Of a stretch of 40,018 bases of DNA, positions 12,453 to 32,528 are shown piece after piece. This stretch comes from Methanomassiliicoccaceae archaeon (GTDB taxonomy: Archaea; Thermoplasmatota; Thermoplasmata; Methanomassiliicoccales; Methanomethylophilaceae). Within the stretch, counting starts at the first letter, position 1, and each line of letters opens with the position of its first letter. The notes under the pieces are model-generated. The model had not been told where the DNA came from, made no database searches, and worked only from the letters and a program-made list of their open reading frames with translations. The DNA lies in contig WRKC01000102.1 in the NCBI GenBank assembly GCA_009778275.1, positions 1 through 40,018 of the forward strand. Reading direction: 5' to 3'. Made by a program: the position numbers and the translations under genes.

Positions 12453-12456
12453 ACTT

Positions 12457-13554
12457 TCACCTCACGATCACGGCGGAGTTCCTGACATGTATCTCCGGGT
12501 GTTCTATGTGCAGACTGAGCCTGTAGTAAGCTGTCAGATAGCCGTTCGCAGCTGCCATGGTGTAATATTTCAGGGCCTCGTCCAATTTCTTCTTCAGGCC
12601 TCTTCCTTCTTCATACAGAGTGCCGAGGGTGTACTGGGCATCCTCGGACCCGGCGACGGATGCCTTCGTCATCAGTTCGATCGCGATCTTATCGCTTCTC
12701 TTTACGAACACCCCCGCGTGATACATCATCGCCAAGGCGAACATCGCGTCAGGATTGCCCAGCTCCGCGGCCAAGATGTAATAGTCGAACGCTTTCTCTT
12801 CGTCCTCTTCTTCAAAGAACCTGTCTGCGGCTATCAGCGCCTGTTCCCTCACGATCTTCTCTTTCTCGACGCCGGTGTTCATGAGCTTTGTCTCTCTTTC
12901 CTCAAGAGAATCGTGTTTTCCCTTGTCGAGGGCGGAAAGCACCTCATGCCAGCATATGTTACACTTCTCGTGCCCCATATCCGCTCCCATCTTGTACCAC
13001 CTTCCGGCCTCAAAAAGGTCCGTTTCAACATCGAACAGACCGTATTCAAAGTTCCTGCCTATCCAATAGAACAGCTCCCCGTCTCCTTTGAGGCCCGTCT
13101 TTATGTACCATTGCTCCCGCTCGGATATGTCCGGGAGAACGCCGATGCCTCTTCCGTACATGTATCCGGTCATGAACATCGCCATCGTGTTCCCTTGGAC
13201 CGCTGCGGAGTACATACGTCTGAAGGCAGACCCTTCGTTCCTTTCCAGATATGTTCCGGTAAGATAGACGAACCCCATCTCGACCTTTGCCTCCGGAACC
13301 CCGGAATCCGCCGCGGCCCTTAGATAAAGAAGGAACATCTCTTCGTTTTTCTTGACGATCGTCCCGTCCCTGAATATCTTTGCCAATTCCCACTTCGCCC
13401 TTGAACATCCCACTTCCGACGATTTGACGTACCACTTCATAGCGAGCTCCGGATCCGGATCTATCTCTTTCCCATGATGGTACATGTAGGCGAGACCGAG
13501 TCTTGCATACGGGTTCCCGGCTTCCGCATCCTGGAATATCGTCCTCCCCGCCAT
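12457..13554 (-). CDS. Sel1-like repeat protein
   Basis: SLR repeats such as AQYTLGTLYEEGRGLKKKLDEALKYYTMAAANG. True start MAGRT at 13554 after GGAGGAGG; the longer ORF call overlaps the upstream gene. Confidence 0.9.
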   Translation of the reverse strand: MAGRTIFQDAEAGNPYARLGLAYMYHHGKEIDPDPELAMKWYVKSSEVGCSRAKWELAKIFRDGTIVKKNEEMFLLYLRAAADSGVPEAKVEMGFVYLTGTYLERNEGSAFRRMYSAAVQGNTMAMFMTGYMYGRGIGVLPDISEREQWYIKTGLKGDGELFYWIGRNFEYGLFDVETDLFEAGRWYKMGADMGHEKCNICWHEVLSALDKGKHDSLEERETKLMNTGVEKEKIVREQALIAADRFFEEEDEEKAFDYYILAAELGNPDAMFALAMMYHAGVFVKRSDKIAIELMTKASVAGSEDAQYTLGTLYEEGRGLKKKLDEALKYYTMAAANGYLTAYYRLSLHIEHPEIHVRNSAVIVR

Positions 13555-13565
13555 GTACCTCCTCC

Positions 13566-15032
13566 TTACCTCATCCTCTCGGCCTTGATCCTTTCCAATA
13601 GTACCTTGGCATCCGGGTCCCCCTGCTTCGCTGCCAAGGAAAGATATCTTTTCGCACGGGGTATGTTCCTTCCCACATATTTGCCGTCCATGTACAGTTT
13701 TCCGAGATAATACTGTCCCTCGAAGTACCCCGAATCGGCCGATGCGTTGAGAAGCCTCAGACCTTCTTCGATATCCTGTTCCACTCCCGACCCCGTAACG
13801 TAAAGCATGCCGAGGAACGCTCCCGCGCCGGGGTGTCCCTGCTCGGCCGCCTGTCCGAACCACATCGCCGCATCCTTCTCGCTCTTCTCCACCCCGCGCC
13901 CATCGTAGAAGAGGCATCCCAGACAGTACTGCGAGTTGACCTCTCCCATCTCCGCAGCCTCCGTGAAATATTTTGCGGCCGTCCCATCGTTCTTTTCGTA
14001 ATGGCTGCCGTTCCCGTACATGCAGGCCAAAGCGTACTGCGCATATCCGTTGCCGTTCGCAGCCGCCTTCTCGAACCATTTCGCGGCGATCGCCGCATTC
14101 TCTTCGAGCACCTCTCCCTCGTACCTCATGTTAGCATAATCCACCATCGCCTGCTGGAATCCGGACTCGCAGGAGGATTCCAGAAGGCGGATGGCCTTGG
14201 CTTCGTCCCTTCTGACGCCTTTGCCGTAAGCGTACATCATCCCCAATTGATACTGTGCCTCGCCGTGCCCTCCCGCCGCGGCCTTCTCCAGATATGCATG
14301 GGACCTCCCGGGGTCGTAACTCTTGGTCTTCGGCACCGAATAGTGCGCCGCCAGAGAATATTGGGCTTCCGTGCTGCCGGCGTCCGCTGCCAGCTTGTAC
14401 CACTTCTCCGCCTGTTTCGCATCGCTTTCCGTGTAGCAGAGCCCGGCCTCATACATTTCCCCAATGTGGCACATCGCATCCGCACTGCCGTTCTCGGATG
14501 CTTTCATCAACCAATAGAGCGCTTTGTCCTTGTCCTTGCCGACTCCCTTCCCCATCAGGTACATGAAGCCTATGGTGCACTGAGCGTGGACATCGTCCTC
14601 CTCGGCGCATACGGTGTACCATCTTACGGCGGTCCTGTGATCCTTTTTAACGGGCGGCCTCCCTTCCGTATAGAGAGCGAACAGTTCCCTGCATGCGTCG
14701 GTGTTCCTCTGTTCGCCTTTGAATTTAAGGGATATCAATTCTCCGATCTCATCTGCGCCGCCGTTCCTCTCCATCTCGTCCTGAAGCAGAGCGGCGTCCT
14801 CGCAGCCGGAGGCGGCCGATCTCGTTAAGAGTTCCTTTGCCGTCACCTCGTCCTTTGCGGACGACGTCCCGGTCAGGAGGAAGAGGGAATACAGATACTG
14901 AGCCTCGCTGCCGCCTTCCGAGGATGACCTTTCCAGCATCTCCGCCGCTTTGGCGAGATCGTATCCCTGCGAAGCGCAGTCCATGCGGGATCGTGCTTCA
15001 TAACAGGTGCTGTCGTTCCTCTCAGATGGCAT
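13566..15032 (-). CDS. Sel1-like repeat protein, about 11 repeats
   Basis: Tandem SLRs such as AQYQLGMMYAYGKGVRRDEAKAIRLLESSCESG. Confidence 0.92.
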   Translation of the reverse strand: MPSERNDSTCYEARSRMDCASQGYDLAKAAEMLERSSSEGGSEAQYLYSLFLLTGTSSAKDEVTAKELLTRSAASGCEDAALLQDEMERNGGADEIGELISLKFKGEQRNTDACRELFALYTEGRPPVKKDHRTAVRWYTVCAEEDDVHAQCTIGFMYLMGKGVGKDKDKALYWLMKASENGSADAMCHIGEMYEAGLCYTESDAKQAEKWYKLAADAGSTEAQYSLAAHYSVPKTKSYDPGRSHAYLEKAAAGGHGEAQYQLGMMYAYGKGVRRDEAKAIRLLESSCESGFQQAMVDYANMRYEGEVLEENAAIAAKWFEKAAANGNGYAQYALACMYGNGSHYEKNDGTAAKYFTEAAEMGEVNSQYCLGCLFYDGRGVEKSEKDAAMWFGQAAEQGHPGAGAFLGMLYVTGSGVEQDIEEGLRLLNASADSGYFEGQYYLGKLYMDGKYVGRNIPRAKRYLSLAAKQGDPDAKVLLERIKAERMR

Positions 15033-15262
15033 GTACTTACCATATGTGCACTGTATTTATCATTTTAGCTGATAAATAAATGTAAGTTCACCTGACCTCG
15101 ATCCGAAACAACGTGGCAGAATGCGATATACGCCCCGGCGGCGTGCCTGCCGGTCGGTGCGTGAGATGTCTTCACTGAAAGCGCACCGCACCCGTTCCCG
15201 CACGAATCGGGACAAGAACAGCTTGTCATAAAGAATATAACCATCGATAAATATCTGCATTC

Positions 15263-15952
15263 ATGCGCGAGGACTCAGGCATCCCGTTCGAAAGCCGGAT
15301 GGAGCCTTTGGAGTGGGCAAAGTTCATAATAAGAACCAAGTCCGAGAAGAATTACAATTCCGCCTTCTCGATACTTTCAGCTTCCGCCAACAAAGGGTCC
15401 TCGGATGCGGAGTTCTATCTCGGCCTCCTGTACTCCAGGGGGCAAGGCGTACGGAAGGACCTCGATGCAGCAAGGCACTGGTTCGAGCGCGCTTCCGAAG
15501 GGGGGAACCTGGGTGCGATGTACTTCATGGGTAAGATGTACAGCAAAGGCTACGGAGCGGAGAAGAACGCCAAGAAGGCCATCTCATTCCTCGGCACGCC
15601 CGCGCTTATGGGCGACCCGAGGGCCCAATATGAATTGGGATTGATCTATTTCGACGGCGACAGTGCGGAAAAGGACATCTCCACCGCGGTCAAGTGGTTC
15701 ACGATGTCCGCCGAGTCCGGCCATTCCGAGGCCCAGTTCGTGCTCGGGCAGTTGTACAAGACCGGATACGGCGTCGAAAAGAGCACGGAGAAGGCTCTGG
15801 ATTGGCTTACGTCGGCCGCCATGAACAAGCACAGGGGCGCCCAGATACTTCTCGGCAATATGTACGACACCGGGGACGGCGTTCCCGTGGATAAGGAAGA
15901 GGCCGACCGGTGGTACAGCATGAGGAACGATGCGGTTATTTCAGCCCTCTGA
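15263..15952 (+). CDS. Sel1-like repeat protein, about 5 repeats
   Basis: AEFYLGLLYSRGQGVRKDLDAARHWFERASEGG and similar repeats; divergent from the other three SLR genes. Confidence 0.92.
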   Translation: MREDSGIPFESRMEPLEWAKFIIRTKSEKNYNSAFSILSASANKGSSDAEFYLGLLYSRGQGVRKDLDAARHWFERASEGGNLGAMYFMGKMYSKGYGAEKNAKKAISFLGTPALMGDPRAQYELGLIYFDGDSAEKDISTAVKWFTMSAESGHSEAQFVLGQLYKTGYGVEKSTEKALDWLTSAAMNKHRGAQILLGNMYDTGDGVPVDKEEADRWYSMRNDAVISAL

Positions 15953-17612: not shown

Positions 17613-17853
17613 TGGTTCACTGTTCAGGGAGAATGTTTTTCATCCATAAAAAGAGTAATAACGAATGACCCGCCGCCGGAGGCGGCTGTTCTTCGAAAAT
17701 AACAGACCCCGTACGGAACATATGCGGTCAGCCCCATCGATCATTCCTGTCTGCAAATGTCATATCGCAACACGCACGGGCCCCTGTCGGAACCTCTACG
17801 ATTATCGTATTCGCGGAATTGCTGTTTAAAAAATTAATCCTCTTGCTTAACTT

Positions 17854-17894
17854 GAATTTCGAAATTCGTAGGGCTTATCAAATCTATTTTATAT
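17854..17894 (+). promoter_or_regulatory. Perfect palindrome GAATTTCGAAATTC followed by TATA-like TTTTATAT upstream of the Hsp70-GTPase operon
   Basis: Palindrome at 17854-17867; TTTTATAT at 17887-17894, about 30 bp before ATG 17925. Confidence 0.5.
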
Positions 17895-17924: not shown

Positions 17925-20003
17925 ATGAAGGTAGGTATAGACCTTGGGACAACGTACTCTACAGTTGCTAGATATGATAAACAAACATCCAGGCCAGAAA
18001 TAATCAATAACAAGTTCGAAAAGGAGCTGACCCCCTCAGTCATATGCTTTTTGGACAACGGGGATGTATTGATCGGCGAGGACGCTAAGGACATGCAGGC
18101 CGGCGGTGCAGGCACGATCGCGGCGTCGTTCAAAAGAGGCATGGGCGACAATAGTTTTACAGTCGAGGCCAACGGCAGGGTGTACACGGCGGAAGACCTT
18201 TCCGCGATGCTTTTGAAAAAATTGATATCCGACGCTGAAGAGAAGTCCGGAGAGAAGATAGATTCGGTGGTGATCACCGTTCCGGCGTACTTCAACGACT
18301 TCCAGAGGACCGCCACGATCCGCGCGGGGGAGGCCTGCGGCGTGAAGGTCATGAAGATCATCAACGAGCCCACTGCGGCCGCGATATCATACGGATACAA
18401 CAGAGAATCCAACAAGACCGTCATGGTCTACGACCTCGGCGGAGGGACGTTCGACGTCACGCTGGTAAAGGTCAACAAAGGGAACATACAGGTCCTGGGA
18501 ACGGACGGCAACCACATACTAGGCGGAAAGGATTGGGACGCGGCCATTGTTAAATTTGTTTGCGAACAATTCGTAGAAGAATACGGTGTGGACCCCAGAG
18601 ATGACGAGCCTACCAAGAACGAGCTGATCGTCGCTTCGGAGAATTACAAGAAGATCCTCACCAGGACGGACAGCGTCACGATACAGATCAAATACGAAGG
18701 ATATTCGAGCAAGTACACACTGACGAGGGAGCAGTTCGACCTGAGGACGCATTTCCTCCTCAATGCAACAAAGGACGTTTGCATGAAACTGTTCGGCGAC
18801 CTCGGGCTGAGCTGGGCGGATGTGGATGAGATACTCCTCGTAGGAGGGTCCACAAGAATGCCGCAGGTGACCAATTTCCTTCAGAACATTTCGGGTAAGC
18901 CCGTGATAGACCACGCGGACACCGATCTGGCGGTCGCAAAAGGGGCGGCCATAACATCAGAATTCTACTGCAGCTCCAGCACAGGGGTCAGAGAGGTGCA
19001 GATATCAGACGTCACCGCGCACAGCCTCGGCGTACTGGCCGAAAGCCCCGGCGGGGACAGGTACATCAACGAGATAATGATCAAAAGGAACTCCAAGATC
19101 CCCTCATCGGTGAGGAAACCTTTCAAGATCAACCCCGGCAACATGACCAACATCATCGAGGTCTATACCCTGCAGGGCGAGAGCAAAGTGCCTCTTGACT
19201 GCTATGTTCTGGCCAAGGTCGTGATATCAGGATTCTACAATTCCGGCGACGGTTCGATAATCGACGTGGAATACAACTATGACGAGAACGGAGTGGTCCG
19301 TGTGTCCGCCTTCCAAGAGGGAGAGCCTCTGCAGGTCGATGCCGAACCCGTCCCGGCCGACATCTCCTGGATGGGCGACAGGCCGGAGAACCGTTCCTCG
19401 GGGGCGCCGATCTCAAAGAACGTCGTCCTCTGCATTGACCTGTCAAGAAGCATGAGGAACTCCCTCGAAGAGGTCAGGAAGGTCATCAACGATTTCGTTA
19501 TGAGCGTGGGGGATGAGTACACTAAGTTCGGGCTGATAGGCTTCGGCGACAAGGTGGGGATAATGCGGGACATGACCAACGACCCCAACATGATAGTCAC
19601 CGCGCTTGACGGCCTGAAGGTCAACGCTTACGGCAGAGGGACCGACGGCAGCCCCTTCGGCACGGCGGCGATGATGCTGTCGAACCGGCCGGGAGGGAAG
19701 ATGATCGTCGTCCTTACCGACGGGATATGGGGAAAAAGGGACTTCGCGGTCGGAGAGGCGCTCAATTGCAAGAACTCGAAGATCGCCATCGTCGGAGTGG
19801 GGATCGGCGAGGCCGACCTTGGTTTCCTTAAACAGATATCCACTGTGCAGGAAGGCGCTATGTACACCACGCTCGACAAACTCGGAGAGACATTCAGCAC
19901 GATCGCCTCCGCTCTAGGCTCCGGTTCGATGGGGCTGCGTGAGAGCGCCGGCGGGGACGGCGGAAGGTTGAAAAGCGCAGAAGTCAGAGGAAGGCTCCGC
20001 TGA
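17925..20003 (+). CDS. Non-canonical Hsp70 fused to a C-terminal vWA domain
   Basis: GIDLGTTYS, TVPAYF, NEPTAAA, DLGGGTFD, VGGSTRMP, AVAKGAA, SBD-beta; then vWA with MIDAS DLSRS...GTD...LTDG in place of the helical lid. Confidence 0.93.
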   Translation: MKVGIDLGTTYSTVARYDKQTSRPEIINNKFEKELTPSVICFLDNGDVLIGEDAKDMQAGGAGTIAASFKRGMGDNSFTVEANGRVYTAEDLSAMLLKKLISDAEEKSGEKIDSVVITVPAYFNDFQRTATIRAGEACGVKVMKIINEPTAAAISYGYNRESNKTVMVYDLGGGTFDVTLVKVNKGNIQVLGTDGNHILGGKDWDAAIVKFVCEQFVEEYGVDPRDDEPTKNELIVASENYKKILTRTDSVTIQIKYEGYSSKYTLTREQFDLRTHFLLNATKDVCMKLFGDLGLSWADVDEILLVGGSTRMPQVTNFLQNISGKPVIDHADTDLAVAKGAAITSEFYCSSSTGVREVQISDVTAHSLGVLAESPGGDRYINEIMIKRNSKIPSSVRKPFKINPGNMTNIIEVYTLQGESKVPLDCYVLAKVVISGFYNSGDGSIIDVEYNYDENGVVRVSAFQEGEPLQVDAEPVPADISWMGDRPENRSSGAPISKNVVLCIDLSRSMRNSLEEVRKVINDFVMSVGDEYTKFGLIGFGDKVGIMRDMTNDPNMIVTALDGLKVNAYGRGTDGSPFGTAAMMLSNRPGGKMIVVLTDGIWGKRDFAVGEALNCKNSKIAIVGVGIGEADLGFLKQISTVQEGAMYTTLDKLGETFSTIASALGSGSMGLRESAGGDGGRLKSAEVRGRLR

Positions 20004-20019
20004 TCGAGGGAAATGACCG

Positions 20020-23000
20020 ATGACAAGTGACAGAGAGAACTACTGTCGCCTCATAGGGCTTAATCCTTTGAAGGAGAGTTCGTACACATACGACGCGATC
20101 GAGAAGAAGATCGCTGCCAAAGAGAGCAAGTGGACCAAAGAGAGCAAAGATAAACAGAACGATCTCGACCGCAGGTTCCAGATAGGCAAATGGCTCGACA
20201 TGGTGCCTGAGATGCGCCGTGTCATGAAGGATCCGGCCCTGAGGTCCAGAGAGTTCGAGGACGGCAAGAAGATACTTAAGTCGAAAGCCTCCAGGCTCAA
20301 CAGGGATTCCATCATACTTCATGACGGCAGCCGCGTTCTGTTGCCCGGTACTGCGGAGAACCTTGTGAAAAAGCTGCAGTGGGACGGCATAAGCAAGGAC
20401 GACCTCATCAATCTGGCAGGGATAAAGAAGACATCCGTCCCGCCGGTCGTGAGCGAGAAGGTCATATCGGCATTCAAAGGGCTGCAGGAAGTGCACGCCT
20501 TCACTCCGATGGACGTTCTGAACGACCTGATCAAAAATCCGGACCTTGAGATCAACATAAATCCGCTTGACGAAGGGAGCACCCTTACGCAGATAAGGAG
20601 CGCATTCGACTCCTGCGAGAAAAGAGTGAACAGCGTAAGGCAGGAGATACTCCCCAACCAGGATTCGTACATCCAGACGCTGAGGTCTCTGAAACTCCTT
20701 CTGAGTTCCGATCAGGACCTCTCGAACCTTGTGAAATACGGCAAATGCATGAGGATCCTCGGTCCCGCGAAACTTATGATGGACGAGGACTACGGGCAGC
20801 CGTTCACCAGGGAATACATTGACGAGATCATCAACAAATACATCCGCCACACGAATGCCGATTCATCGATGGCGATCTCGATACTCGAAGAGTACTGCGT
20901 GAAAAAGAAATACCTCTCGAATTTCTCATCAAAAGAAAGCAAGCTTACAACATGCTCCCACTGCGGTGCGCTCGTCGAGTCCGGGGACAACATAATGTAC
21001 TGCTCCGTCTGCGGAGGCGGCATAAGGACCAAATGCCCGCAGTGCGGGACCGGCCAGGCCTCCGGCAACCGGGCCTGCATGAAATGCGGGTTCGATTTCC
21101 AGGACGGTCTGAATAAAGCAAAGGAACTTGAAAAGAAGTTCCGCATTGCCCTTTCGTACGGCATGATAGACGAGGCCGCGAACTGCATCACGAAGATCGA
21201 GCGCACGTATTCGACGTATCCTTCGCTGCAGGAGATGAAGAACGAGCTTAAACCGCTCTCCTCAAAATATAACGAACTGATCAATTCCATTGACCTCTTT
21301 TACAAGCAGAGGAAATACTATGCGCTGAGAAGCGCCGTCGATGATGCGAAGCTCGATTTCACAAAGATACTCAACAACCCGGAGATCGAGCGGAAATACG
21401 AGGAGGCGTCGCAGAAGATCATTGAGGCGGACAATACATGCGACCGCGCCGCATCCTCTAAGGACCAAAGCAACGCGATGATGATGTACGTCACGGCGAT
21501 AGAGATGTGTCCGGACCATCCCATTGCCAAAGCGAAGATGAAGGAACATCCCCCGGAGTCCCCCGCCGATGCGGTGGCTCAGGTAAGGGAGGGAAAGGTT
21601 CTGCTGAAGTTCGCCGTTCCCGAAGATAGGGCCGGCATGACCTTCTGCATTTTCAGGGGAAAGGACTCCCTTCCGGTGGTTACGGATGATTCCACACCCC
21701 TGGCGGAGATACCGGGAAGCGTTTACTTAGATAAGACCACGGAACCCGGCATCGATACTTATTATGCGGTATATTCAAAAAGATGGGGGATCCTTTCCAG
21801 AGAGGCCGCCTCGTGCGGCCCGGTCATGGTCTTCAAGGAAGTGGAGGTCGTGAGCATCGAGCCCATTGAGGGCGGGCTGAGGATCATCTACGAAAAGCCA
21901 AAGGGTGCCTCCAAGGTGCGTATCTGGAGGAAAGAAGGGACATCCGCCGCCGGTGTCGGAGAAGAAGTGGAGATAATGCACGGCGGAGAGACTGTCATAG
22001 ACGATTACGGCCTGAAAGGCGGAGTGAAATATTATTATCTTCTAGTCGCCGAATACAAGAATAAAGGACGCACGGAAAGGTCGATGGGAAACGTCGTATC
22101 ATTCACGACCACAAAGTTCCCGGAGCCGATAAGGGATATGGAAATAAGATGGAACAAGGCCGACGGTTCTTTCACGGCAAAGTGGAAGAGCAAGGAGCGC
22201 GTCTCCCTTTATTCATCCCCCAACAAAGTGAACCTGTTCGGAAGGATGGTCAAACTGGACGATCTGAACGCATGGATGAAGGAGATACAGCCTTTGGAGG
22301 CGTACGAGAACGGAATGAGGTTCCTCCTCCCGGACGGCGCCGTACAGTACATCTATCCTATGATCCCCGCCGGGAAGGTGGCGGTCAGAGGCAAGGAGAT
22401 CCTGGTCGCCAACCTGAAACCCTTCAGGGATGTTGAGAAAAGGATGAGCGGCAACGACTGTGACGTGACGATGACGTGGCCCATGGGCGCTGACTCGGCG
22501 ATCCTGGCGATCAAAGAATCCGCGGCGGCATCGGGGCCGGACGACCTCGATGCCGAGCGCATAACGATCACCAGGGATGCCTATAACAAAGACAAGATGG
22601 TAAGGATACCCATGGGCAACTCGAAAAAGAGGACCGTGACGCTGTATGCTGTGTACGACGTGTCGGGAGAGAGGATGACATCGAGAGGGATGAGCATCGA
22701 CATCTATTCCGGAGCTAGCAGCAAGGTCAGGTATTCCATGACCCTTGAGGGGTCCTCCAAAGCGGAATCGAAAGTGATATTGAGCATCGACACCGACAGC
22801 GGGACCCGAGAGCTCCCGCCGATGACAGCGATAGCCGTTCAGGATGGGATACCGCTCAAGATATGGGACGGGGAATCGATATGGTCCTCGAACAGGCCCG
22901 TGGCCCTCAATTCCGGAAGGGCGACCATCATGTTCACCGTGAAGACCAAAGTGGACATCAGCAAAGTAAGGTTGTTCTTCGTTAACGAGGAGGACTACAA

Positions 23001-23040
23001 CCTGTTCAAGTTCATACACCCGCTGTACAAGGAGAAGTGA
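20020..23040 (+). CDS. Multidomain protein: degenerate J-like N-terminus, double zinc ribbon, helical/TPR-like segment, FnIII-like beta-sandwich repeats
   Basis: NYCRLIGL...VMKDPALRSREFE; CSHC/CSVC/CPQC/CMKC; FnIII-like strands YLDKTTEPGIDTYYAVY and IDDYGLKGGVKYYYLLV. Confidence 0.7.
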   Translation: MTSDRENYCRLIGLNPLKESSYTYDAIEKKIAAKESKWTKESKDKQNDLDRRFQIGKWLDMVPEMRRVMKDPALRSREFEDGKKILKSKASRLNRDSIILHDGSRVLLPGTAENLVKKLQWDGISKDDLINLAGIKKTSVPPVVSEKVISAFKGLQEVHAFTPMDVLNDLIKNPDLEININPLDEGSTLTQIRSAFDSCEKRVNSVRQEILPNQDSYIQTLRSLKLLLSSDQDLSNLVKYGKCMRILGPAKLMMDEDYGQPFTREYIDEIINKYIRHTNADSSMAISILEEYCVKKKYLSNFSSKESKLTTCSHCGALVESGDNIMYCSVCGGGIRTKCPQCGTGQASGNRACMKCGFDFQDGLNKAKELEKKFRIALSYGMIDEAANCITKIERTYSTYPSLQEMKNELKPLSSKYNELINSIDLFYKQRKYYALRSAVDDAKLDFTKILNNPEIERKYEEASQKIIEADNTCDRAASSKDQSNAMMMYVTAIEMCPDHPIAKAKMKEHPPESPADAVAQVREGKVLLKFAVPEDRAGMTFCIFRGKDSLPVVTDDSTPLAEIPGSVYLDKTTEPGIDTYYAVYSKRWGILSREAASCGPVMVFKEVEVVSIEPIEGGLRIIYEKPKGASKVRIWRKEGTSAAGVGEEVEIMHGGETVIDDYGLKGGVKYYYLLVAEYKNKGRTERSMGNVVSFTTTKFPEPIRDMEIRWNKADGSFTAKWKSKERVSLYSSPNKVNLFGRMVKLDDLNAWMKEIQPLEAYENGMRFLLPDGAVQYIYPMIPAGKVAVRGKEILVANLKPFRDVEKRMSGNDCDVTMTWPMGADSAILAIKESAAASGPDDLDAERITITRDAYNKDKMVRIPMGNSKKRTVTLYAVYDVSGERMTSRGMSIDIYSGASSKVRYSMTLEGSSKAESKVILSIDTDSGTRELPPMTAIAVQDGIPLKIWDGESIWSSNRPVALNSGRATIMFTVKTKVDISKVRLFFVNEEDYNLFKFIHPLYKEK

Positions 23041-23044
23041 AAAA

Positions 23045-24307
23045 GTGGCAAAGAACCCCGAACCCCAGCCATCCGCCTTGACGTACATCTGCCCCTTCTG
23101 CTTCAGTTCCGTCGACCTGAAGGATATCCACTACCAGTGCACCAACCCCGCATGCACGAAGATATTCCTCAGGGAGCTCGACGAGAAGAACGCCCGCAAA
23201 TACAGATCGAAGAACATAGAGGAGGAGATCGACGTAGAGAACTCCATCTTCTTGGGGAAGGACCCCGCCGGGCCTTCGCCGGCCACGACAAAGTATCATA
23301 TCATAAGGAACTCCAAAGGAGCATGCGACATTTGCAAGAAGCCGGTCTACAAGAGGCTCTGCCCCAGCTGCCACAACCCGATCCCCCAAGGGGCGGAAGA
23401 GGAGGGCAGCAGCGTATTCGTCGTGCTCGGACCGAAAGGAGTGGGTAAAAGTCACTACATAGCGGTCCTCATAAACCAGCTCAGGAACTCCTTCTCCCCC
23501 GAGTTCGGGGCCACGATGAGCCCCGCTACGGACCGCACCACCCTGAAATACAGGGAAATGTACTATAAGAGACTGTATGAGGAGGGGAGGAAGCTCTCCC
23601 CCACGCTCTCCTTCGAAGAAAGCAGAGATTCCAGGGAACCCATGATCTACTATCTCAGGTTCCTCGAGGGAGATTCGCCCCGCGTCTACACCCTGGCCTT
23701 TTTCGATACTGCGGGAGAGGACCTCGATTCCACGGGAAAGATGATGGGGCTGAACCTCAACTCGTTCATCTCCAGGGCATCAGGCATCGTGTTCCTGGTG
23801 GACCCGCTTCAGATACCTTACATCAACACCAGGATACGCATGGACAACAAGCCCCCCACCGGGGGCAACGTGGCCAACATGCTCTCGGATATCTCGAACA
23901 TCATAAGGACGAACAATTCGCTCAAGATAAAGGATCAGATATCCATCCCGCTGGCGGTCGTTCTCACAAAAGCGGATGTGCTCATGAAGGCTCCGGAGAA
24001 CGATGAGGAGAGCAGCATACTGTTCGGCATGAACTCCTCCCTCTACGTCGAAAGAGAGAGGGGAAGATATGATAGGAGCAATTTCGAACAGATAAGTGCG
24101 GAGATCGAAGAATATATGCGCAGGGCGGTATCAAAGGGCTTTGTACAGACCGTCAAGGAATTCAAAGAGCATTCTTACTTTGCAGTGTCCTCGCTGGGAA
24201 GCAATCCCACCGGGAACATGCTCACAAGAGGGATATCACCGATGCGCGTGGAAGACCCGTTCATATGGCTTCTCAACTGCGAGAGCCTAAAGGAGAGAAA
24301 GAAATGA
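23045..24307 (+). CDS. Zinc-ribbon + TRAFAC-class GTPase (double-GTPase-system type)
   Basis: N-terminal CPFC, CTNPAC, CDIC, CPSC; G1 GPKGVGKS, G3 DTAG, LVDP, G4 TKAD, G5 VSSLG; GTG start. Confidence 0.85.
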   Translation: MAKNPEPQPSALTYICPFCFSSVDLKDIHYQCTNPACTKIFLRELDEKNARKYRSKNIEEEIDVENSIFLGKDPAGPSPATTKYHIIRNSKGACDICKKPVYKRLCPSCHNPIPQGAEEEGSSVFVVLGPKGVGKSHYIAVLINQLRNSFSPEFGATMSPATDRTTLKYREMYYKRLYEEGRKLSPTLSFEESRDSREPMIYYLRFLEGDSPRVYTLAFFDTAGEDLDSTGKMMGLNLNSFISRASGIVFLVDPLQIPYINTRIRMDNKPPTGGNVANMLSDISNIIRTNNSLKIKDQISIPLAVVLTKADVLMKAPENDEESSILFGMNSSLYVERERGRYDRSNFEQISAEIEEYMRRAVSKGFVQTVKEFKEHSYFAVSSLGSNPTGNMLTRGISPMRVEDPFIWLLNCESLKERKK

Positions 24308-25080
24308 CCGACAAAAAAAGATCCAGCAAGGCCAGCAAGCTCAAGAATTTCTTGGTGACGGGGTCCATCGAGGATGAGGAGGGGTACAACAAAATGAATG
24401 AAGAAGAAATGCCTGCAAAGGACCTCGCCGATACGGAGGGGGCTCCGGCGTATGACCCGCCGGAGGAGGAGATGGTCATTGAAGATATCATAGATGGAGA
24501 GATAGAGATCGAGACCGTGCGTGGAGACAACATTCCCCCGTGGCCCGACGGCGGCGATATCGATTCCCTTGAAAGGGAGATCGCCGAACTGAAAGGGATG
24601 GTCGCCTGCCTCGCATCCGATCTGGAAAGATACACCACCTCAAAAGAGCAGCTGAAAGAATATTCAACGGTCATAAACAAAAGGGATTCGGAGTTAGCCA
24701 ACAGGAAGTTCATTGGGATGCTGGAACAGCTGTCCGCAATGAGAGAGGACTTCTTCAAACTCTGCAAGGGAATGAACGCTAAATTGGACAGTTTCTCGCC
24801 GAAGGACATCCTGAGCTCGTTCGAAGCGTACGGGGTCGACATGGAGAATATCCTGGTCGACTGCGGCGTGCAGATCGGTCGGAGCAAGTACGAGAGACTG
24901 AACACAATACACCAAAGAATCGTCGATGTCATACCCACCGACGATGAATCAATGAACGGTATGATAGCGGAGAGGGTGTCTGACGGGTACGTGTACCAGG
25001 GGCGCGTTCTTCAAAAGGAAAAGGTGAAAATCTATAAGTATTCTGAGAACGGAAAAACAGAAGGAGATGAAGAAAAATGA
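24304..25080 (+). CDS. grpE: GrpE-like nucleotide exchange factor with acidic N-terminal extension
   Basis: Coiled coil followed by HQRIVDV...IAERVSDGYVYQGRVLQKEKVKIY, matching the GrpE beta-domain pattern; ATGA overlaps at both ends. Confidence 0.75.
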   Translation: MTDKKRSSKASKLKNFLVTGSIEDEEGYNKMNEEEMPAKDLADTEGAPAYDPPEEEMVIEDIIDGEIEIETVRGDNIPPWPDGGDIDSLEREIAELKGMVACLASDLERYTTSKEQLKEYSTVINKRDSELANRKFIGMLEQLSAMREDFFKLCKGMNAKLDSFSPKDILSSFEAYGVDMENILVDCGVQIGRSKYERLNTIHQRIVDVIPTDDESMNGMIAERVSDGYVYQGRVLQKEKVKIYKYSENGKTEGDEEK

Positions 25081-26669
25081 GCAATGAATATATGATCGGA
25101 ATTGACCTCGGTACGACATACTCGTGCCTGGCATTCATAGATGAAGAGGGTGACCCCATCGTCGAGAAGAACTTCGAGCAGGAGGACACGACGCCGTCAG
25201 TCATACTTTTCAACGAGAACGGAGAGATAATAGTCGGATCGCCCGCAAAGGACATGGCGATAATGTACCCTCTGGAAAGGGTCGTTACGGCCATCAAAAG
25301 ACAGATCGGCACCGATTATGAAGTGGACATCGACGGGGACAAATACACCCCCGTGACCCTGTCCGCAGCCATCCTGAGGAAGATGATCAACGACTTCAAT
25401 GACAACCACGGCGTGGATGTGAAAAAGGCAGTGATCACCTGCCCGGCGTACTTCGGGCAGAACGAAAGGGATGCCACCAAGACCGCAGGGAAGGTCGCCG
25501 GCCTTACGGACGTGACGATCATCAACGAGCCCACCGCGGCGGCGATATCCTTCGGATTCGGCGCGGGAGCGGGGGAGAAGAAGAGAGTGATGGTCTACGA
25601 CCTCGGCGGAGGAACGTTCGACGTTACCATTCTGGAGATAGAGGGAAGCGCGTTCACCGCTGTCGCGACAGACGGGGAGAGGCTCCTCGGAGGCAAGGAT
25701 TGGGATCAGGCCCTGATCAAGATCATAAAACAGAAGGTGTGCGAGGAGAACGACATCGAAGAGACCGAGCTTGACGATGACGATGATGTTAAACAATCAC
25801 TCATCCTCGACTCCGAGACGATCAAAAAGAGGCTTTCGACCGCGGAATCCACCAAAGGAACGCTTACGGTCGGAGGAAAGAAGGCCGTTTACACCATAAC
25901 AAGATCTGAGTTCGAGGCCGCCACCGCGCCGCTGATGCAGACCACAATCGACATCATCGACAGAGCGCTTGCATCGAAAAGCTTCTCCATATCCGACATC
26001 GACGACGTCATCCTGGTCGGAGGTTCCTCCAGGATGCCTCAGGTCAAGAACGGGATATGCCAGAAATACCCGGACGCCAGCGTTAAAGTGTTCGATCCGG
26101 ACCAGTCCATCGCGAAGGGTGCGGCAATATTCGCAAGCGCCCACAACTGGGCCAGCGCAGAGGACTCCGCTGCGGCGGTCGCGGCAGGCGAGACCTATGT
26201 CCCCAAGGAAGGAGAGATCACAGTCCACAACGTACTGAGCAAATCCTTCGGGATCAAGGCCGTGTACGACGACGGAAGGGAGAGGGAGATGATCTCGAAC
26301 ATCATCTTCAGGAACGAGGTGCTCCCAATAGTCGCCACCAAGACCTATTATCCGGTGGACGACGGCCAGACCTCCATCAAAGTGGAGATCTTCGAGAACT
26401 CCGCCTCCAACAACGACCAGGGGAAGAGGATCGAGCTGATCGACGGATACAGCGTCGGAGATTTCGAGATGGACCTGCCGGAAGGAGTGACCAGGAGCAC
26501 CCCCATCACCGTCAAGTTCATCGCGACGGACGAGGGCATACTGGTCTCGCATGTGGACTGCTTGTCTCTGCACACCGAATACCAGCTGCAGAACAAACTC
26601 CAGATGTCTGATTCCGAGATCAAGGATTCCCAGGGACTCATGGAAAAGGTCGCTAAACCGAACGAATAA
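25077..26669 (+). CDS. Second non-canonical Hsp70 (NBD + SBD-beta, lid truncated)
   Basis: GIDLGTTYS, TPSV, TCPAYF, NEPTAAA, DLGGGTFD, VGGSSRMP, IAKGAA; only 530 aa. Confidence 0.93.
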   Translation: MSNEYMIGIDLGTTYSCLAFIDEEGDPIVEKNFEQEDTTPSVILFNENGEIIVGSPAKDMAIMYPLERVVTAIKRQIGTDYEVDIDGDKYTPVTLSAAILRKMINDFNDNHGVDVKKAVITCPAYFGQNERDATKTAGKVAGLTDVTIINEPTAAAISFGFGAGAGEKKRVMVYDLGGGTFDVTILEIEGSAFTAVATDGERLLGGKDWDQALIKIIKQKVCEENDIEETELDDDDDVKQSLILDSETIKKRLSTAESTKGTLTVGGKKAVYTITRSEFEAATAPLMQTTIDIIDRALASKSFSISDIDDVILVGGSSRMPQVKNGICQKYPDASVKVFDPDQSIAKGAAIFASAHNWASAEDSAAAVAAGETYVPKEGEITVHNVLSKSFGIKAVYDDGREREMISNIIFRNEVLPIVATKTYYPVDDGQTSIKVEIFENSASNNDQGKRIELIDGYSVGDFEMDLPEGVTRSTPITVKFIATDEGILVSHVDCLSLHTEYQLQNKLQMSDSEIKDSQGLMEKVAKPNE

Positions 26670-26671
26670 AC

Positions 26672-26698
26672 GGGGGCACTGCCCCCTATTTTCATTTT
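26672..26698 (+). terminator. GC hairpin plus T-rich tract ending the Hsp70-GTPase operon
   Basis: GGGGGC-ACT-GCCCCC followed by TATTTTCATTTT. Confidence 0.6.
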
Positions 26699-26754: not shown

Positions 26755-27165
26755 TTGTATTGTCATAACTGCGGGAACGCGATAGACGACGATGCCAACC
26801 ACTGCAAACACTGCGGGCAGCCCGTGAAGAACTACGGCCGATACGCTACGTTTACGAATCTTCGCGAAAAGGAAGTGGGGGTCGGCCTTATCATCGCCCT
26901 GCTGGTCATAGGCGGGGGCCAGATGTATGCGGGGAAGATAGCAAGAGGGTTCATCATATTATTGGCATGGGTGTTTTTATTCATACCCGTGTTGGCACTA
27001 ATCATCATAAGCGATGTTGTGGCCGGGCCCTACGGAGGGGCATTCGCTGTCATAGCGGCCTTCGTCATCTACATCGGATATTGGGTCTGGTCGATCTATG
27101 ACGCGAAGATCACGATAGAAAGATACAACGAGGCTCTCAGAAATACGGGCCGGCCGCCGTGGTAA
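26755..27165 (+). CDS. Zinc-ribbon + TM2-like membrane protein
   Basis: CHNCG...CKHCG ribbon; GGGQMYAGKIARG followed by hydrophobic helices and WSIYDA; TTG start after GGAG. Confidence 0.75.
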   Translation: MYCHNCGNAIDDDANHCKHCGQPVKNYGRYATFTNLREKEVGVGLIIALLVIGGGQMYAGKIARGFIILLAWVFLFIPVLALIIISDVVAGPYGGAFAVIAAFVIYIGYWVWSIYDAKITIERYNEALRNTGRPPW

Positions 27166-29000: not shown

Positions 29001-30527
29001 TCAGAACATCTTGGCCTTAAGGTCCTTATCGTTCTCCGCCAATATCCATATGAAGGGGTCCACGGCGTTGTTGTTCTCTCCCAGAGATGCCACCTTGAAG
29101 AATCTGACGTTCTTGAAAGCCGACTGAGCTATGTCCACTACCATCTTGTGGCCGTACTTGTTGAGGAATTCGACAGGCGAATCCTCCGCATTGATAGCCG
29201 ACCTTACCTTCGGGTCGTCCATCTTCGTCAGAACGACCGCGAACGGGACCGTTGATTTCACCGCCGGTCCGTACCCGTTGATCTCAGTGTACATATGGTA
29301 GAACGACTCCAGCGTCGCGACGGGAGTGTTCTTCGAACCCTTTGTCGGAGACTGGGAGTGATACAGCGCCATTACCTCGAGCGGGTCTATGGCCAGGATT
29401 ATGCCGTCGTTGTATCTGTAATATTCTTCGAAGAGTATCTTATCCTTGTCCGGCTGGAATTCCACCCCGGATATGTCGTTGATGATTATCTGTTTCTCCG
29501 GCAGGTCCCTCGACCTGAGGAAAAAGTATTCCGAATCGAGTTCCCCGGCGTGAGTGGGGGGGATGTTGGCCTTCCCGCGCTGGGCGTTGAAAGATATCCC
29601 GTTTGTTATTATCTCGGAAACAATGCCCTTCTCTTTCGCCATGACGGCCATCGTCTCTACTGCGGATATCATCATGGTGGTCTTTCCGGAACCGACCGAT
29701 CCGACCATGGATATCGCGACGGGCTTCGCTTCATGAGTGAGCATATCTCCTTTGCAGAATGGGCATGATGCCTGCATCTTGGCCCTTGACCCGTTGGCGT
29801 TGGTGCTTGGGATCTTATGCCCTCTGTTGCAGGTGTGGTACTTCACCCCGTACTTGTTGGGGACGGGATACGACAGGACAAGGCCGCATATGCACCTGAT
29901 GTCTGGCTGAAAGAAATTCCTCTTGCATCTGGGGCAGACCGCATATTGAGTGTCTTTTTCATAAGCATCAAGATCCTTTGATGCGGCCAGCTTTATCCTG
30001 ACCGCCATGAATGCCCAACCGATAACAAAAAGCACCGCCAGGAAGACATCCATAATCAGCGCGAACGGCAGCATGAAGGGAATGAATATTATCGGAAGTA
30101 TGACGGGCACCTTCTTCAGCCTCCAGGCGACCGTGAGAATGTTCCACGGGATCATCAGGCACCACAGGAATCCTTTCGGTTTGTGCGTGAATATATACTC
30201 CTGCGGATCGTCATCGCCTCCCTTCATGTCAAAGGTGGGTCTGGATGCGCACCCGGCGGCCACCAGCGCAAACCCTATTGCGAATAGGCCGATCGAGAGA
30301 TACGTAGTGTCCTCTCCTCCGAGGTCGGTATAAAGTTCGGTAAGGCTCCAGTACGCATCGCGAACGGATTCCGGTATTATCATTACTATCCAATCGTAGA
30401 ATTGGTTGAGCTCGAACTCGAATGTCACGCCGTAAATGTCCATTACCAAAAGTGCGAACGAATATGCGGCGAAAACAAAGGCAACCCCGATAATGGTTCC
30501 CATCAGTGCCTGGTTTGTCCTGTTCAT
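29001..30527 (-). CDS. Membrane-anchored zinc-ribbon + TRAFAC-class GTPase (second GTPase of the double-GTPase type)
   Basis: N-terminal TM helices; CPRC, CIC, CNRGH, CPFC; G1 GSVGSGKT, G3 DISG, AIDP, G4 TKMD, G5 VASLG; C-terminal DPFIWIL as in the 23045 gene (DPFIWLL). Confidence 0.85.
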   Translation of the reverse strand: MNRTNQALMGTIIGVAFVFAAYSFALLVMDIYGVTFEFELNQFYDWIVMIIPESVRDAYWSLTELYTDLGGEDTTYLSIGLFAIGFALVAAGCASRPTFDMKGGDDDPQEYIFTHKPKGFLWCLMIPWNILTVAWRLKKVPVILPIIFIPFMLPFALIMDVFLAVLFVIGWAFMAVRIKLAASKDLDAYEKDTQYAVCPRCKRNFFQPDIRCICGLVLSYPVPNKYGVKYHTCNRGHKIPSTNANGSRAKMQASCPFCKGDMLTHEAKPVAISMVGSVGSGKTTMMISAVETMAVMAKEKGIVSEIITNGISFNAQRGKANIPPTHAGELDSEYFFLRSRDLPEKQIIINDISGVEFQPDKDKILFEEYYRYNDGIILAIDPLEVMALYHSQSPTKGSKNTPVATLESFYHMYTEINGYGPAVKSTVPFAVVLTKMDDPKVRSAINAEDSPVEFLNKYGHKMVVDIAQSAFKNVRFFKVASLGENNNAVDPFIWILAENDKDLKAKMF

Positions 30528-31421: not shown

Positions 31422-31853
31422 TTACCCTACTTTATCGATCCGCTCGAAAGTGATCTCCAATGCCTCAATGGCGATCTCGTTGGCCATAGCATCAAAGGCC
31501 GGCGCGATATACTTCGAAGGCCATGCTCCCATGATGTTCCAACGCGCCTCGTCATCGCCGTTCTCATTGACAGCGATGATGGAGATGTTCTTCCTCTCTG
31601 CCGCACCGTCAATACCGGCTTTGAACCAGTTGTAGATATCCAGAGATGATGTTGCTCCCCATTTCAGCAACAGTGGGCCGAATGTGGCCAAACCACTCAA
31701 CTTGCGAACATATTTGGGATCGGTACCCTCCCGATAATAGACCACGCCGATGTTCGCGTCAAACCCGGTCACATCGCGGAACCCCGCCTGCTGAATCCCA
31801 TCTATCTCTATACGGAAACGAAAATTCAAAAAAGGATCGTATCTGCCAGTCAT
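31422..31853 (-). CDS. T4 gp19-like contractile tail-tube protein (eCIS Afp1/Afp5 type)
   Basis: FRFRIEIDG..AGF..VTG, YREG, RKLSG, LKWG, ERKNISI, WNIMGAWPSKY, IAIEALEI. Confidence 0.9.
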   Translation of the reverse strand: MTGRYDPFLNFRFRIEIDGIQQAGFRDVTGFDANIGVVYYREGTDPKYVRKLSGLATFGPLLLKWGATSSLDIYNWFKAGIDGAAERKNISIIAVNENGDDEARWNIMGAWPSKYIAPAFDAMANEIAIEALEITFERIDKVG

Positions 31854-31925: not shown

Positions 31926-32528
31926 TTATGAGATCCCATCGTAAACCAGTGTTATTGATTCAACAGCCACATCTGTGCCCAAGGCGGTAAAATTCGGTCC
32001 TTCCCACGCACACGGCCATGCATTGGTGAGATGCCAGCTTACCAGATCTTTACCTGTCTCATCGATCAGTGTGATCTTCACGTTTTTGCGAATAATGTTG
32101 CCGTTGATGGCATTTTTATGCCAGTCATACAGTTCGCGAGAAGCAGTGACTCCCCACGTGAGCTTTACGTTGGAATAACTCACTCTGCTTGTGAGTCTTT
32201 GTGCTTTTTGAGATACACCATCATCGTATGGAATGACCTCAATGCTCGTTCCAAGCCCCGTGCATTTGAAAAATCCGGCCTGCTGGATCCCGTCGATCTC
32301 GACACGGAACCTGTTATTACTGCATGGGCTCATCCCGTCGCCCTTCAACAGATCCTTTAACGCGAGCTCATATCTGCCGGACAGTTTATCTAATTCTATT
32401 TCGGACATTTGGATCAATTCTTTTACAGACTCTGTGCTTAATTCTGAATCAGACATTTGGATCAATTCTTTGACAGAATATTTGCCCAGCTTTATATCGG
32501 GCAGTCCATTTGATGTGTTGTCGGCCAT
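31926..32528 (-). CDS. T4 gp19-like tail-tube protein with N-terminal repeat extension
   Basis: FRVEIDGIQQAGF, LTWG, RKNVKI, WHLTNAWPCAWEGP, VAVESITL; GAGGAG RBS. Confidence 0.88.
   Translation of the reverse strand: MADNTSNGLPDIKLGKYSVKELIQMSDSELSTESVKELIQMSEIELDKLSGRYELALKDLLKGDGMSPCSNNRFRVEIDGIQQAGFFKCTGLGTSIEVIPYDDGVSQKAQRLTSRVSYSNVKLTWGVTASRELYDWHKNAINGNIIRKNVKITLIDETGKDLVSWHLTNAWPCAWEGPNFTALGTDVAVESITLVYDGIS

What the first reader, a model, noticed from the sequence alone, without database searches (positions are those of the whole stretch)
17925..26669. Dedicated dual-Hsp70 / GrpE / J-like / vWA / TRAFAC-GTPase operon: candidate archaeal conflict or surveillance system
Seen: five codirectional genes with gaps of 16 and 4 nt and two ATGA overlaps, closed by a hairpin. 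They encode Hsp70-vWA, a J-like/Zn-ribbon/FnIII-like 1006-aa protein, a Zn-ribbon GTPase, a GrpE-like factor and a lidless Hsp70. This is not the housekeeping grpE-dnaK-dnaJ locus. Known: TRAFAC 'double-GTPase' (DO-GTPase/GAP1-associated) loci have been computationally proposed as NTP-regulated conflict systems, mainly in bacteria, and vWA domains act as substrate adaptors for chaperone ATPases. Inference: a private chaperone cycle wired to a GTPase switch that senses, remodels or assembles a target such as viral proteins. I know of no experimental characterisation in archaea.
Basis: partly seen in the sequence, partly recalled or inferred. Interest (0 to 1): 0.88.

Follow-up and report, generated by a model that had tools for sequence, protein, structure and literature searches.

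The report
Domesticated Hsp70–GTPase machine of gut methanogens
This is a real five-gene operon of a methanogen: two lid-less Hsp70 chaperones, a GrpE, a GTPase and a large scaffold predicted to bind the GTPase; it is a stripped-down, stably inherited relative of a computer-predicted bacterial 'conflict' system, and a promoter motif shared with carbon-metabolism genes suggests it has likely been put to everyday use.

Summary
Observation confirmed. The operon is a GAP1-less variant of the GAP1-N2 double-GTPase systems, HSP70/GrpE theme (Kaur 2020; predicted, and I found no test). The scan noted it before in four other genomes. Housekeeping grpE-dnaK lies elsewhere.

Added here:
2. A sister system with all the parts plus GAP1 exists in the same family, so GAP1 was likely lost.
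3. The scaffold's C-terminal domains are predicted to bind the GTPase: score 0.76, best control 0.00 (mark reached by 116/157 solved, 2/215 mismatched pairs). Two natural scaffold-GTPase fusions exist.
4. The J-like domain lacks HPD, and both Hsp70s lack its partner residues R167/Q378.
5. A twin 13-bp palindrome upstream of the TATA box occurs in 44/49 relatives. It also precedes malic enzyme, acetate-CoA ligase and porC/ppsA, and is found in genomes without the operon.

The operon is near-core in seven genera (67/73 genomes), vertically inherited, under purifying selection, with no variable effector. Best reading (0.5): a GTPase-gated, dedicated chaperone for host clients, tied to metabolic state. 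Antiviral surveillance: 0.25.

The parts
17797..17809 (.). Distal copy of a 13-bp palindromic operator (consensus TACGAAWTTCGTA), 128 nt before the first ATG; likely a transcription-factor site
   Evidence: two copies in 34 of 49 distinct upstream regions
17858..17870 (.). Proximal operator copy, 16 nt upstream of the TATA-like box and 67 nt before the ATG
   Evidence: 28 of 81 sites lie at 67-68 nt although the upstream neighbour gene varies
17887..17893 (+). TATA-like box (TTTTATA), conserved in most relatives
17925..20003 (+). Hsp70-vWA: ATPase domain, beta peptide-binding sandwich, lid replaced by a vWA domain with an intact MIDAS site (D505, S507, S509, T573, D599)
   Evidence: D505/S507/S509/D599 in 26/26, T573 in 25/26
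20020..23040 (+). Scaffold: HPD-less J-like domain (1-95), helical domain, double Zn ribbon (about 310-357), TPR-like helices (360-507), four FnIII-like sandwiches (about 510-899), C-terminal beta domain ending in a conserved FF..HP motif; C-terminal part predicted to bind the GTPase
23045..24307 (+). Zinc-ribbon DO-GTPase2 (TRAFAC): G1 GPKGVGKS 129, G3 DTAGE 221 with the family's Walker B glutamate, G4 TKAD 308, G5 SSLG 382
24304..25080 (+). GrpE-like nucleotide exchange factor with a variable acidic N-terminus; not found in 3 of 19 type-A loci (genus g6)
25077..26669 (+). Second Hsp70: intact ATPase motifs, beta sandwich and first lid helix kept, lid bundle missing, linker D393 replaced by N in 20/20
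26672..26686 (+). GC hairpin plus T-rich tail, terminator-like
29001..30527 (-). Second DO-GTPase with four predicted N-terminal membrane helices and Zn ribbons; detached from the operon by rluF-like and pirin genes; likely a remnant member of the same system

Best explanation
The operon likely encodes a domesticated, GTPase-gated chaperone machine: a scaffold predicted to bind the GTPase at its C-terminal end would hold the two lid-less Hsp70s on specific host client proteins and remodel or assemble them when the cell's carbon/energy state calls for it. Shown: gene content, intact ATP, GTP and MIDAS motifs, loss of the lid, HPD and its partner residues, GAP1 not found, vertical inheritance, purifying selection, and a shared operator. 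Predicted: scaffold residues 943-948, 986-1002 and the FnIII 3/4 hinge dock on GTPase residues about 315-359. Inferred: the J-like/TPR half recruits the Hsp70s, and the vWA MIDAS site picks an acidic client, as vWA does for MoxR ATPases. Also inferred: GTP state replaces the HPD trigger as timer, GrpE resets one Hsp70, and lid loss gives fast bind-release rather than general refolding. The operator would be read by a host metabolic regulator. Descent from a GAP1-containing system, with loss of the GAP1/effector arm, is likely.
For: Distribution: a full-length scaffold is in 67 of 73 genomes of seven genera and in none of the 47 genomes of 12 other genera, where 8 weak hits are Zn-ribbon only. 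The GTPase is in 47/63 family genomes and 0/87 genomes of other families of the order. Inheritance: across 18 genomes, operon gene trees recover 7-10 of 10 well-supported housekeeping-DnaK splits, and distances co-vary among operon genes (rho 0.82-0.91) more than with DnaK (0.48-0.61). Selection: dN/dS is 0.05-0.19 in every domain measurable, window against 6-10 congeners. Neighbours: housekeeping genes such as fhs, rluF-like, pirin, P-type ATPase and a cfb-like cluster. Binding: score 0.76 against best control 0.00; the mark was reached by 116/157 solved and 2/215 mismatched pairs; runs agree in at least 94% of contacts, partner pLDDT at least 80. The scaffold-side interface is more conserved than the rest (0.75 vs 0.63, p=0.0014). 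Scaffold-GTPase fusions P0330 and P0339 occur among 26 long homologues examined. Operator: in 44/49 upstream regions against 0.5% of shuffles; 36 sites against 6 for the reversed pattern in five genomes with the operon; 16 against 0 in three family genomes without it. It recurs before malic enzyme, acetate-CoA ligase, porC/ppsA, nadX and trxR. Sites were seen in 0/45 housekeeping dnaK loci.
Against: No client is identified and no experiment exists. The operon is dispensable: no full-length scaffold was found in 12 genera of the family, and grpE and the TM-GTPase are patchy. It evolves 2.8-4.8 times faster than DnaK, with long branches in genus g2 and G142, where the operator and the Walker B glutamate decay. 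The GTPase side of the predicted interface is not more conserved than the rest (0.67 vs 0.71, p=0.84). The motif was derived from these same upstream regions, so the 44/49 count is partly circular. Eight of the 28 non-operon sites lie inside long ORFs, and the regulator is unknown. Rate covariation can also come from linkage. Hsp70-scaffold binding was not tested. Some immune systems are also stably inherited.
Confidence: 0.5

Rival explanations
1. It is still an anti-virus or anti-element surveillance system, as Kaur 2020 predicts for the family: the FnIII/vWA/Hsp70 parts bind invader proteins and the GTPase thresholds a containment or dormancy response.
For: Direct kinship with GAP1-N2 systems, including a GAP1-bearing sister system in the same family. 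Kaur 2020 (sections 27 and 29 read) predicts conflict roles. Evolution is faster than DnaK. Metabolic control could gate a dormancy response.
Against: No GAP1 and no effector in the type-A loci among 113 loci examined. The FnIII repeats are as conserved as the rest (51-56% mean identity, dN/dS 0.06-0.08). Only one PADLOC hit, at E 0.046. No relative was found in viral contigs. The position is fixed among housekeeping genes, and the operator is shared with metabolic genes.
Confidence: 0.25
2. It is a membrane/envelope stress or morphogenesis machine: the TM-GTPase anchors the complex at the membrane of these cells and the Hsp70s service membrane proteins, like HscC with DjlB/C.
For: Four-TM DO-GTPase nearby. 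Kaur 2020 notes membrane proximity for GAP1-N2 systems. Mayer 2021 (passages) describes HscC acting at the membrane. Some distant GTPase homologues are fused to SH3 or SLT domains.
Against: The TM-GTPase was found in only 28/63 family genomes against 47/63 for the soluble GTPase. It is unlinked in genus g7, and only 1/20 of its upstream regions has a (poor) operator. No other operon protein has a membrane helix.
Confidence: 0.15
3. It is a general back-up heat-shock chaperone set, or a decaying relic of a transferred bacterial system.
For: Hsp70/GrpE content; loss of parts in some lineages; long branches in g2.
Against: Lid, HPD, R167/Q378 and the VLLLD linker are lost or altered. The operator is not shared with dnaK loci. 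There is strong purifying selection and invariant catalytic residues.
Confidence: 0.1

Closest known systems
GAP1-N2-type GTPase-centric (DO-GTPase) systems, HSP70/GrpE theme (Kaur, Burroughs, Iyer, Aravind, eLife 2020, PMC7159879; sections 27-29 read, computational only)
   Same: Zn-ribbon DO-GTPase with Walker B glutamate; second DO-GTPase with four N-terminal TM helices; FNIII-repeat protein with a DnaJ-like or TPR N-terminal part; HSP70, GrpE and a second HSP70.
   Different: No GAP1 found; no variable effector; not mobile; archaeal, unicellular host clade. The second Hsp70 keeps its beta peptide-binding domain. The Hsp70-vWA fusion is not named in the text read. The J domain lacks HPD. 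The TM-GTPase is detached and has no C-terminal TM. The operon carries a host metabolic operator.
Type-B paralogue in the same family (G142:C54 = L033; also L117, L126, L138)
   Same: TM-GTPase, Hsp70, GTPase, Hsp70-vWA, scaffold and GrpE homologues (25-43% identity).
   Different: Has GAP1 (N2 + M domains); Hsp70 and grpE are inverted; rare (1 of 121 family genomes); no operator before it; forms a separate branch of the GTPase tree.
Canonical DnaK-DnaJ-GrpE
   Same: All ATP-binding and catalytic residues checked are invariant in both Hsp70s; the beta sandwich is kept; GrpE is present.
   Different: Scores are 338 and 306 bits against a cut-off of 822; no lid; linker and J-contact residues altered; the canonical locus is elsewhere.
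MoxR-vWA chaperone pairs, and specialised Hsp70s HscA/HscC (Kaur 2020 passages; Mayer 2021, PMC8215388, passages)
   Same: A vWA MIDAS adaptor coupled to an ATPase remodeller; a dedicated Hsp70 with its own co-chaperones and few clients.
   Different: The ATPase is an Hsp70 fused to the vWA, there are two Hsp70s, and a GTPase is attached through a scaffold. This is a functional analogy only.

Membership tests
GAP1-N2 DO-GTPase system, HSP70/GrpE theme | DO-GTPase with Walker B glutamate and N-terminal Zn ribbons | tested here: met
   PF19993 39.8 bits, cut-off 27; DTAGE in 21/26 homologues
GAP1-N2 DO-GTPase system, HSP70/GrpE theme | GAP1 gene (GAP1-N2, M, C), the second conserved core component | tested here: not met
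   Not in the operon. PF20013 is over cut-off in 1/151 order genomes and PF20014 in 1/121 family genomes, both G142's separate type-B system. A type-B GAP1-N2 query finds only itself among 121 genomes, plus one weak hit. GAP1 hits occur in 4/113 loci, all type B. Own genome is 66% complete, but single-contig relatives such as G034 also lack a hit. GAP1-C was not searched as a family.
GAP1-N2 DO-GTPase system, HSP70/GrpE theme | FNIII-repeat protein | tested here: met
   Model pLDDT 86.7; Foldseek E 2.5e-10 to fibronectin; VIA Z 14.5, rmsd 3.8, 168 aligned to tenascin FnIII. The repeats are not rapidly evolving.
GAP1-N2 DO-GTPase system, HSP70/GrpE theme | FNIII protein fused to DnaJ domain or TPR | tested here: inconclusive
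   Four-helix J-like layout; profile match to host DnaJ E=0.006 over 61 columns against 0.063 or worse in 20 shuffles, but probability only 6%; no HPD in the J-like region of 26/26. TPR-like helices are seen by model, with weak Pfam hits in single members.
GAP1-N2 DO-GTPase system, HSP70/GrpE theme | HSP70 and GrpE genes | tested here: met
GAP1-N2 DO-GTPase system, HSP70/GrpE theme | Second HSP70 without peptide-binding domain (subset feature) | tested here: not met
   Both Hsp70s keep the beta sandwich; only the lid is lost or replaced
GAP1-N2 DO-GTPase system, HSP70/GrpE theme | [quoted passage not shown] | tested here: met
   29001-30527: PF19993 22.7 bits (below cut-off here; orthologues 31.8 and 33.6, over it); four N-terminal TM segments by hydropathy, no C-terminal one; outside the operon
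GAP1-N2 DO-GTPase system, HSP70/GrpE theme | Mobile neighbourhood with variable effectors | tested here: not met
   Fixed order, vertical trees, no extra genes, purifying selection
GAP1-N2 DO-GTPase system, HSP70/GrpE theme | Action against invading elements (predicted) | not testable with these tools
   Needs infection experiments
Housekeeping DnaK | TIGR02350/NF001413 cut-off, lid, VLLLD linker, R167 | tested here: not met
   canonical dnaK is over cut-off elsewhere in 103/121 family genomes
HscA / HscC | HscA model cut-off; HscC signature | tested here: inconclusive
   HscA not met (328 and 285 bits against 708); no HscC-specific test was run
TrmB-family metabolic regulon (for the operator) | Known TrmB motifs and a bound TrmB protein | tested here: inconclusive
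   The motif TACG-N5-CGTA resembles but differs from TACT-N3-AGTA, TACT-N7-8-GAGTA and TATCAC-N5-GTGATA (PMC4158304 passages); the regulator was not identified

The most novel reading that the evidence does not exclude
A bacterial-type immune scaffold was captured by the ancestor of a gut-methanogen clade, shed its GAP1/effector arm, was wired into the host's pyruvate/acetyl-CoA regulon, and became a new kind of Hsp70 machine. In it a GTPase on an FnIII scaffold, not a J-domain HPD, times two lid-less Hsp70s, one of which selects clients with a vWA domain in place of its lid.
Probability: 0.3. Interest if true: 0.8.

Novelty: new variant of a known kind. Interest (0 to 1): 0.55.

Why it matters
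I found no experimental test of any DO-GTPase system in 7 literature searches, two of them aimed at this family. This minimal four-to-five-gene, largely soluble version has close relatives in Candidatus Methanoplasma, including M. termitum (88% GTPase identity). It now comes with a predicted interface, mutable catalytic residues and a regulatory motif, which makes the family's mechanism directly testable. It also bears on the open question of what lid-less, J-independent DnaK derivatives do (Goloubinoff 2026, PMC13580251, section 6 read). If the metabolic link holds, it is a case of an immune-type module turned housekeeping. The operator also points to a carbon-metabolism regulon of Methanomassiliicoccales that I did not find described.

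Tried and rejected
Searches that found nothing useful:
- PADLOC: one hit at E 0.046 only. NCBIfam: nothing for the scaffold or GTPase.
- Viral contigs: no relative with the single query or the alignment.
- Plasmids: only two Rhodococcus hits at 29% identity; the one I read has GAP1 but no Pfam Hsp70 hit in the 11 ORFs scanned.
- PDB by sequence with the scaffold profile: best E 0.02. I did not search the PDB with the GTPase, so a like solved complex is not excluded.
- RNA runs: no RNA holder was listed; this is no evidence either way.
- The protein atlas gave no answer, so the J-like region was not tested that way or folded alone.

Questions left open:
- The donor was not identified. The sister GTPase lineages (P0132-P0134, P0199-P0202) carry no organism names, and the 80 metagenome loci kept of 313 were all type A or type B, so bacterial gene contexts rest on Kaur 2020 and one plasmid.
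- DO-GTPases in other genomes of the class or phylum (G376, G353, G216) sit in different contexts without Hsp70 hits in the ORFs scanned.

Readings rejected:
- The idea that the GrpE-like or scaffold gene hides GAP1 found no support.
- A heat-shock regulon for the operator was rejected (0/45 dnaK loci).
- P0006 (26755-27165) was rejected as a member: a homologue was seen in 1 of 13 loci.

Literature:
- Seven searches found no paper on this archaeal operon or the motif.
- Kaur's Figure 1 source data PDF could not be read and may list these loci. The readable supplement only lists M. termitum and M. alvus as non-multicellular species.
- The 2026 ParA preprint and Rebeaud 2026 (PMC12874294) were seen as passages and do not describe it in those.

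Full report
Observation. The five ORFs, gaps (16 and 4 nt), two ATGA overlaps and the hairpin are as described. Pfam gives HSP70 + VWA, Zn ribbons, DO-GTPase2, GrpE and HSP70. Neither Hsp70 reaches the DnaK cut-off. The genome (66% complete) has a separate thermosome-grpE-dnaK locus on C89, and 103 of 121 family genomes have a canonical dnaK over cut-off. The closest named relatives are Candidatus Methanoplasma and other Methanomassiliicoccales, at 59-90% GTPase identity in 13 loci.

Known family. Kaur et al. 2020 (PMC7159879; sections 27, 28 and 29 read, other passages seen) define GTPase-centric systems by a DO-GTPase plus GAP1. About 14% of GAP1-N2 neighbourhoods carry HSP70, GrpE, sometimes a second HSP70, and an FNIII protein fused to DnaJ or TPR. 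They are mostly in actinobacteria and firmicutes, and are predicted, not tested. The window matches this theme except for GAP1.

GAP1. GAP1-N2 is over cut-off in 1 of 151 order genomes and GAP1-M in 1 of 121 family genomes. A closer GAP1 query adds nothing. That one genome, G142, has the ordinary operon and also a second 'type-B' system with TM-GTPase, Hsp70, GTPase, GAP1, Hsp70-vWA, scaffold and GrpE. Three metagenome loci show the same. GAP1 hits occur in 4 of 113 loci, all type B. In a tree of 96 GTPases, type A is one clade (support 1.0). Types A and B plus unnamed lineages group at 0.99 apart from most other representatives, and B is not nested in A. Loss of GAP1 in type A is the simplest reading. 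No rooted test of order or donor was run.

Missed gene. ORF 29001-30527 (-) is a second DO-GTPase with four hydrophobic N-terminal segments. It was found in 28 of 63 family genomes, all among those listed with the soluble GTPase. It lies beyond rluF-like and pirin genes in g1, g4, g9 and G022. In the three g7 type-A genomes read it lies elsewhere, next to pirin in two of them.

Distribution and evolution. The GTPase is in 47/63 family genomes and 0/87 genomes of other families. A full-length scaffold is in 67/73 genomes of seven genera; I set aside 8 Zn-ribbon-only hits in other genera. Order is unchanged in 19/19 type-A loci, with grpE not found in three g6 loci. For 18 genomes, operon trees recover 7-10 of 10 strong DnaK splits, run 2.8-4.8 times longer, and co-vary with each other (rho 0.82-0.91). 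dN/dS is 0.05-0.19 in all domains; the GrpE N-terminus is saturated and variable. There is no hypervariable part.

Anatomy. The Hsp70-vWA model (pLDDT 84.7) shows ATPase domain, beta sandwich and a vWA in place of the lid. Its best fold matches are lid-truncated or ATP-state Hsp70s. The MIDAS residues are nearly invariant. In an alignment of 18 housekeeping, 20 vWA-type and 20 second-type Hsp70s, the catalytic positions are invariant. R167 becomes K (20/20) or mostly T (18/20), Q378 is lost in all, and the VLLLD linker is altered. E. coli numbering was assigned by motif from recall. Mayer 2021 (passages) names R167 and Q378 as partners of the HPD aspartate. The scaffold model (pLDDT 86.7, pTM 0.42) has a four-helix N-terminus, Zn ribbons, TPR-like helices and FnIII sandwiches. 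The N-terminus matches host DnaJ weakly (E 0.006, probability 6%, better than 20 shuffles) and has no HPD. Both sides of the canonical J contact are therefore lost.

GTPase-scaffold link. Among 26 long homologues, P0330 and P0339 fuse scaffold domains to the GTPase, and P0281 fuses a GTPase to an Hsp70-type beta sandwich. Each is a single unnamed sequence. Scaffold 505-1006 with GTPase 10-416 scored 0.76, best control 0.00. That mark was reached by 116 of 157 solved and 2 of 215 mismatched pairs, and holds only roughly here because my own alignments were used. Runs agree in at least 94% of contacts and partner pLDDT is at least 80. This supports binding and does not show it. Interface conservation is enriched on the scaffold side (p=0.0014) but not on the GTPase side (p=0.84), though S331, E353, E356 and Y357 are at least 96% conserved.

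Operator. Upstream regions show a palindrome, TACGAAWTTCGTA, about 16 nt before the TATA box, usually with a second copy about 60 nt further up. It is present in 44 of 49 distinct regions, twice in 34, against 0.5% of shuffles. The motif came from these same regions, so this count is partly circular. Four of the five regions without it are long-branch copies. Independent support: 36 sites against 6 for the reversed pattern in five genomes with the operon, and 16 against 0 in three family genomes lacking it. There is no excess in two genomes of other families (5 against 8), though one of them has a site at the malic enzyme gene. Of the 28 non-operon sites in the first five genomes, 8 lie inside long ORFs. 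Recurrent targets are malic enzyme (3 genomes, plus 2 without the operon), porC or porC/ppsA (3), nadX/archease (3), acetate-CoA ligase (2, plus the own genome by N-terminal likeness) and trxR (2); single cases are glcD/adk, mtaC and agcS. It was absent from 45 housekeeping dnaK loci and from the type-B operon start. A site upstream of the TATA box fits an activator, and a TrmB-like regulator is a lead only.

Mechanism. Best reading (0.5): a scaffold-held GTPase gates two lid-less Hsp70s that remodel or assemble specific host clients chosen by the vWA and the beta sandwiches, expressed with the pyruvate/acetyl-CoA genes. The client, the Hsp70-scaffold contact and the gating are inferred. Rivals: antiviral surveillance 0.25, membrane machine 0.15, back-up chaperone or relic 0.1. 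It works like the Kaur HSP70 theme in parts list but fails membership on GAP1 and on mobility/effectors, so it is filed as a new variant.

Earlier scan notes. Four notes report the same GAP1-less operon in other genomes. I had reached that reading before opening them and tested it here. None was found for the operator.

Noticed in passing
L033:11630-14011, L126, L117 (type-B GAP1); L034:5991-5993; L008:9688-9690: In-frame TAG at the same codon (139) between GAP1-N2 and GAP1-M in three loci, with leucine there in L138; single in-frame TAGs also occur in one scaffold and one Hsp70. These genes otherwise end in TGA or TAA, so pyrrolysine read-through is likely (pyrrolysine use by this order is recalled, not tested).
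   Followed up: partly
G142:C54 (L033, L163): Complete GAP1-bearing sister system about 10 kb from housekeeping dnaK-dnaJ. The type-A copy in the same genome is long-branched and has lost the operator.
   Followed up: partly
L209-L259: The palindrome marks a candidate carbon/redox regulon of the family (malic enzyme, acetate-CoA ligase, por, ppsA, nadX, trxR, glcD); in operon-less genomes sites also precede genes that look like cysteine desulfurase by their N-termini. Regulator unknown.
   Followed up: partly
window 31422-31853 and 31926-32528 (-): Two adjacent T4 gp19-like tail-tube genes (PF06841) with no other phage or injection-system gene hit among the window ORFs scanned.
   Followed up: no
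window 11712-15952: Cluster of Sel1-repeat ORFs; two overlap in different frames (12457-14079 and 13566-15032), which may be a frameshift. Sel1 genes also precede the operon in genus g7.
   Followed up: no
window 26755-27165 (+): Small Zn-ribbon plus three-TM protein right after the hairpin; homologue seen in 1 of 13 related loci.
   Followed up: partly
L203-L206 (G376, G353, G216): Other DO-GTPase loci in the same class or phylum: a two-GTPase cluster without Hsp70 hits, and a GASH/GAAD-phosphoesterase (GAP1-N1-type) locus.
   Followed up: partly
L027, L028, L029 (genus g2): Fast-evolving copies with the Walker B glutamate replaced and no operator, possibly relaxing or changing function.
   Followed up: no
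genera g3 and g5: Many genomes without this operon still show 2-3 Hsp70 matches; the extra copies were not examined.
   Followed up: no
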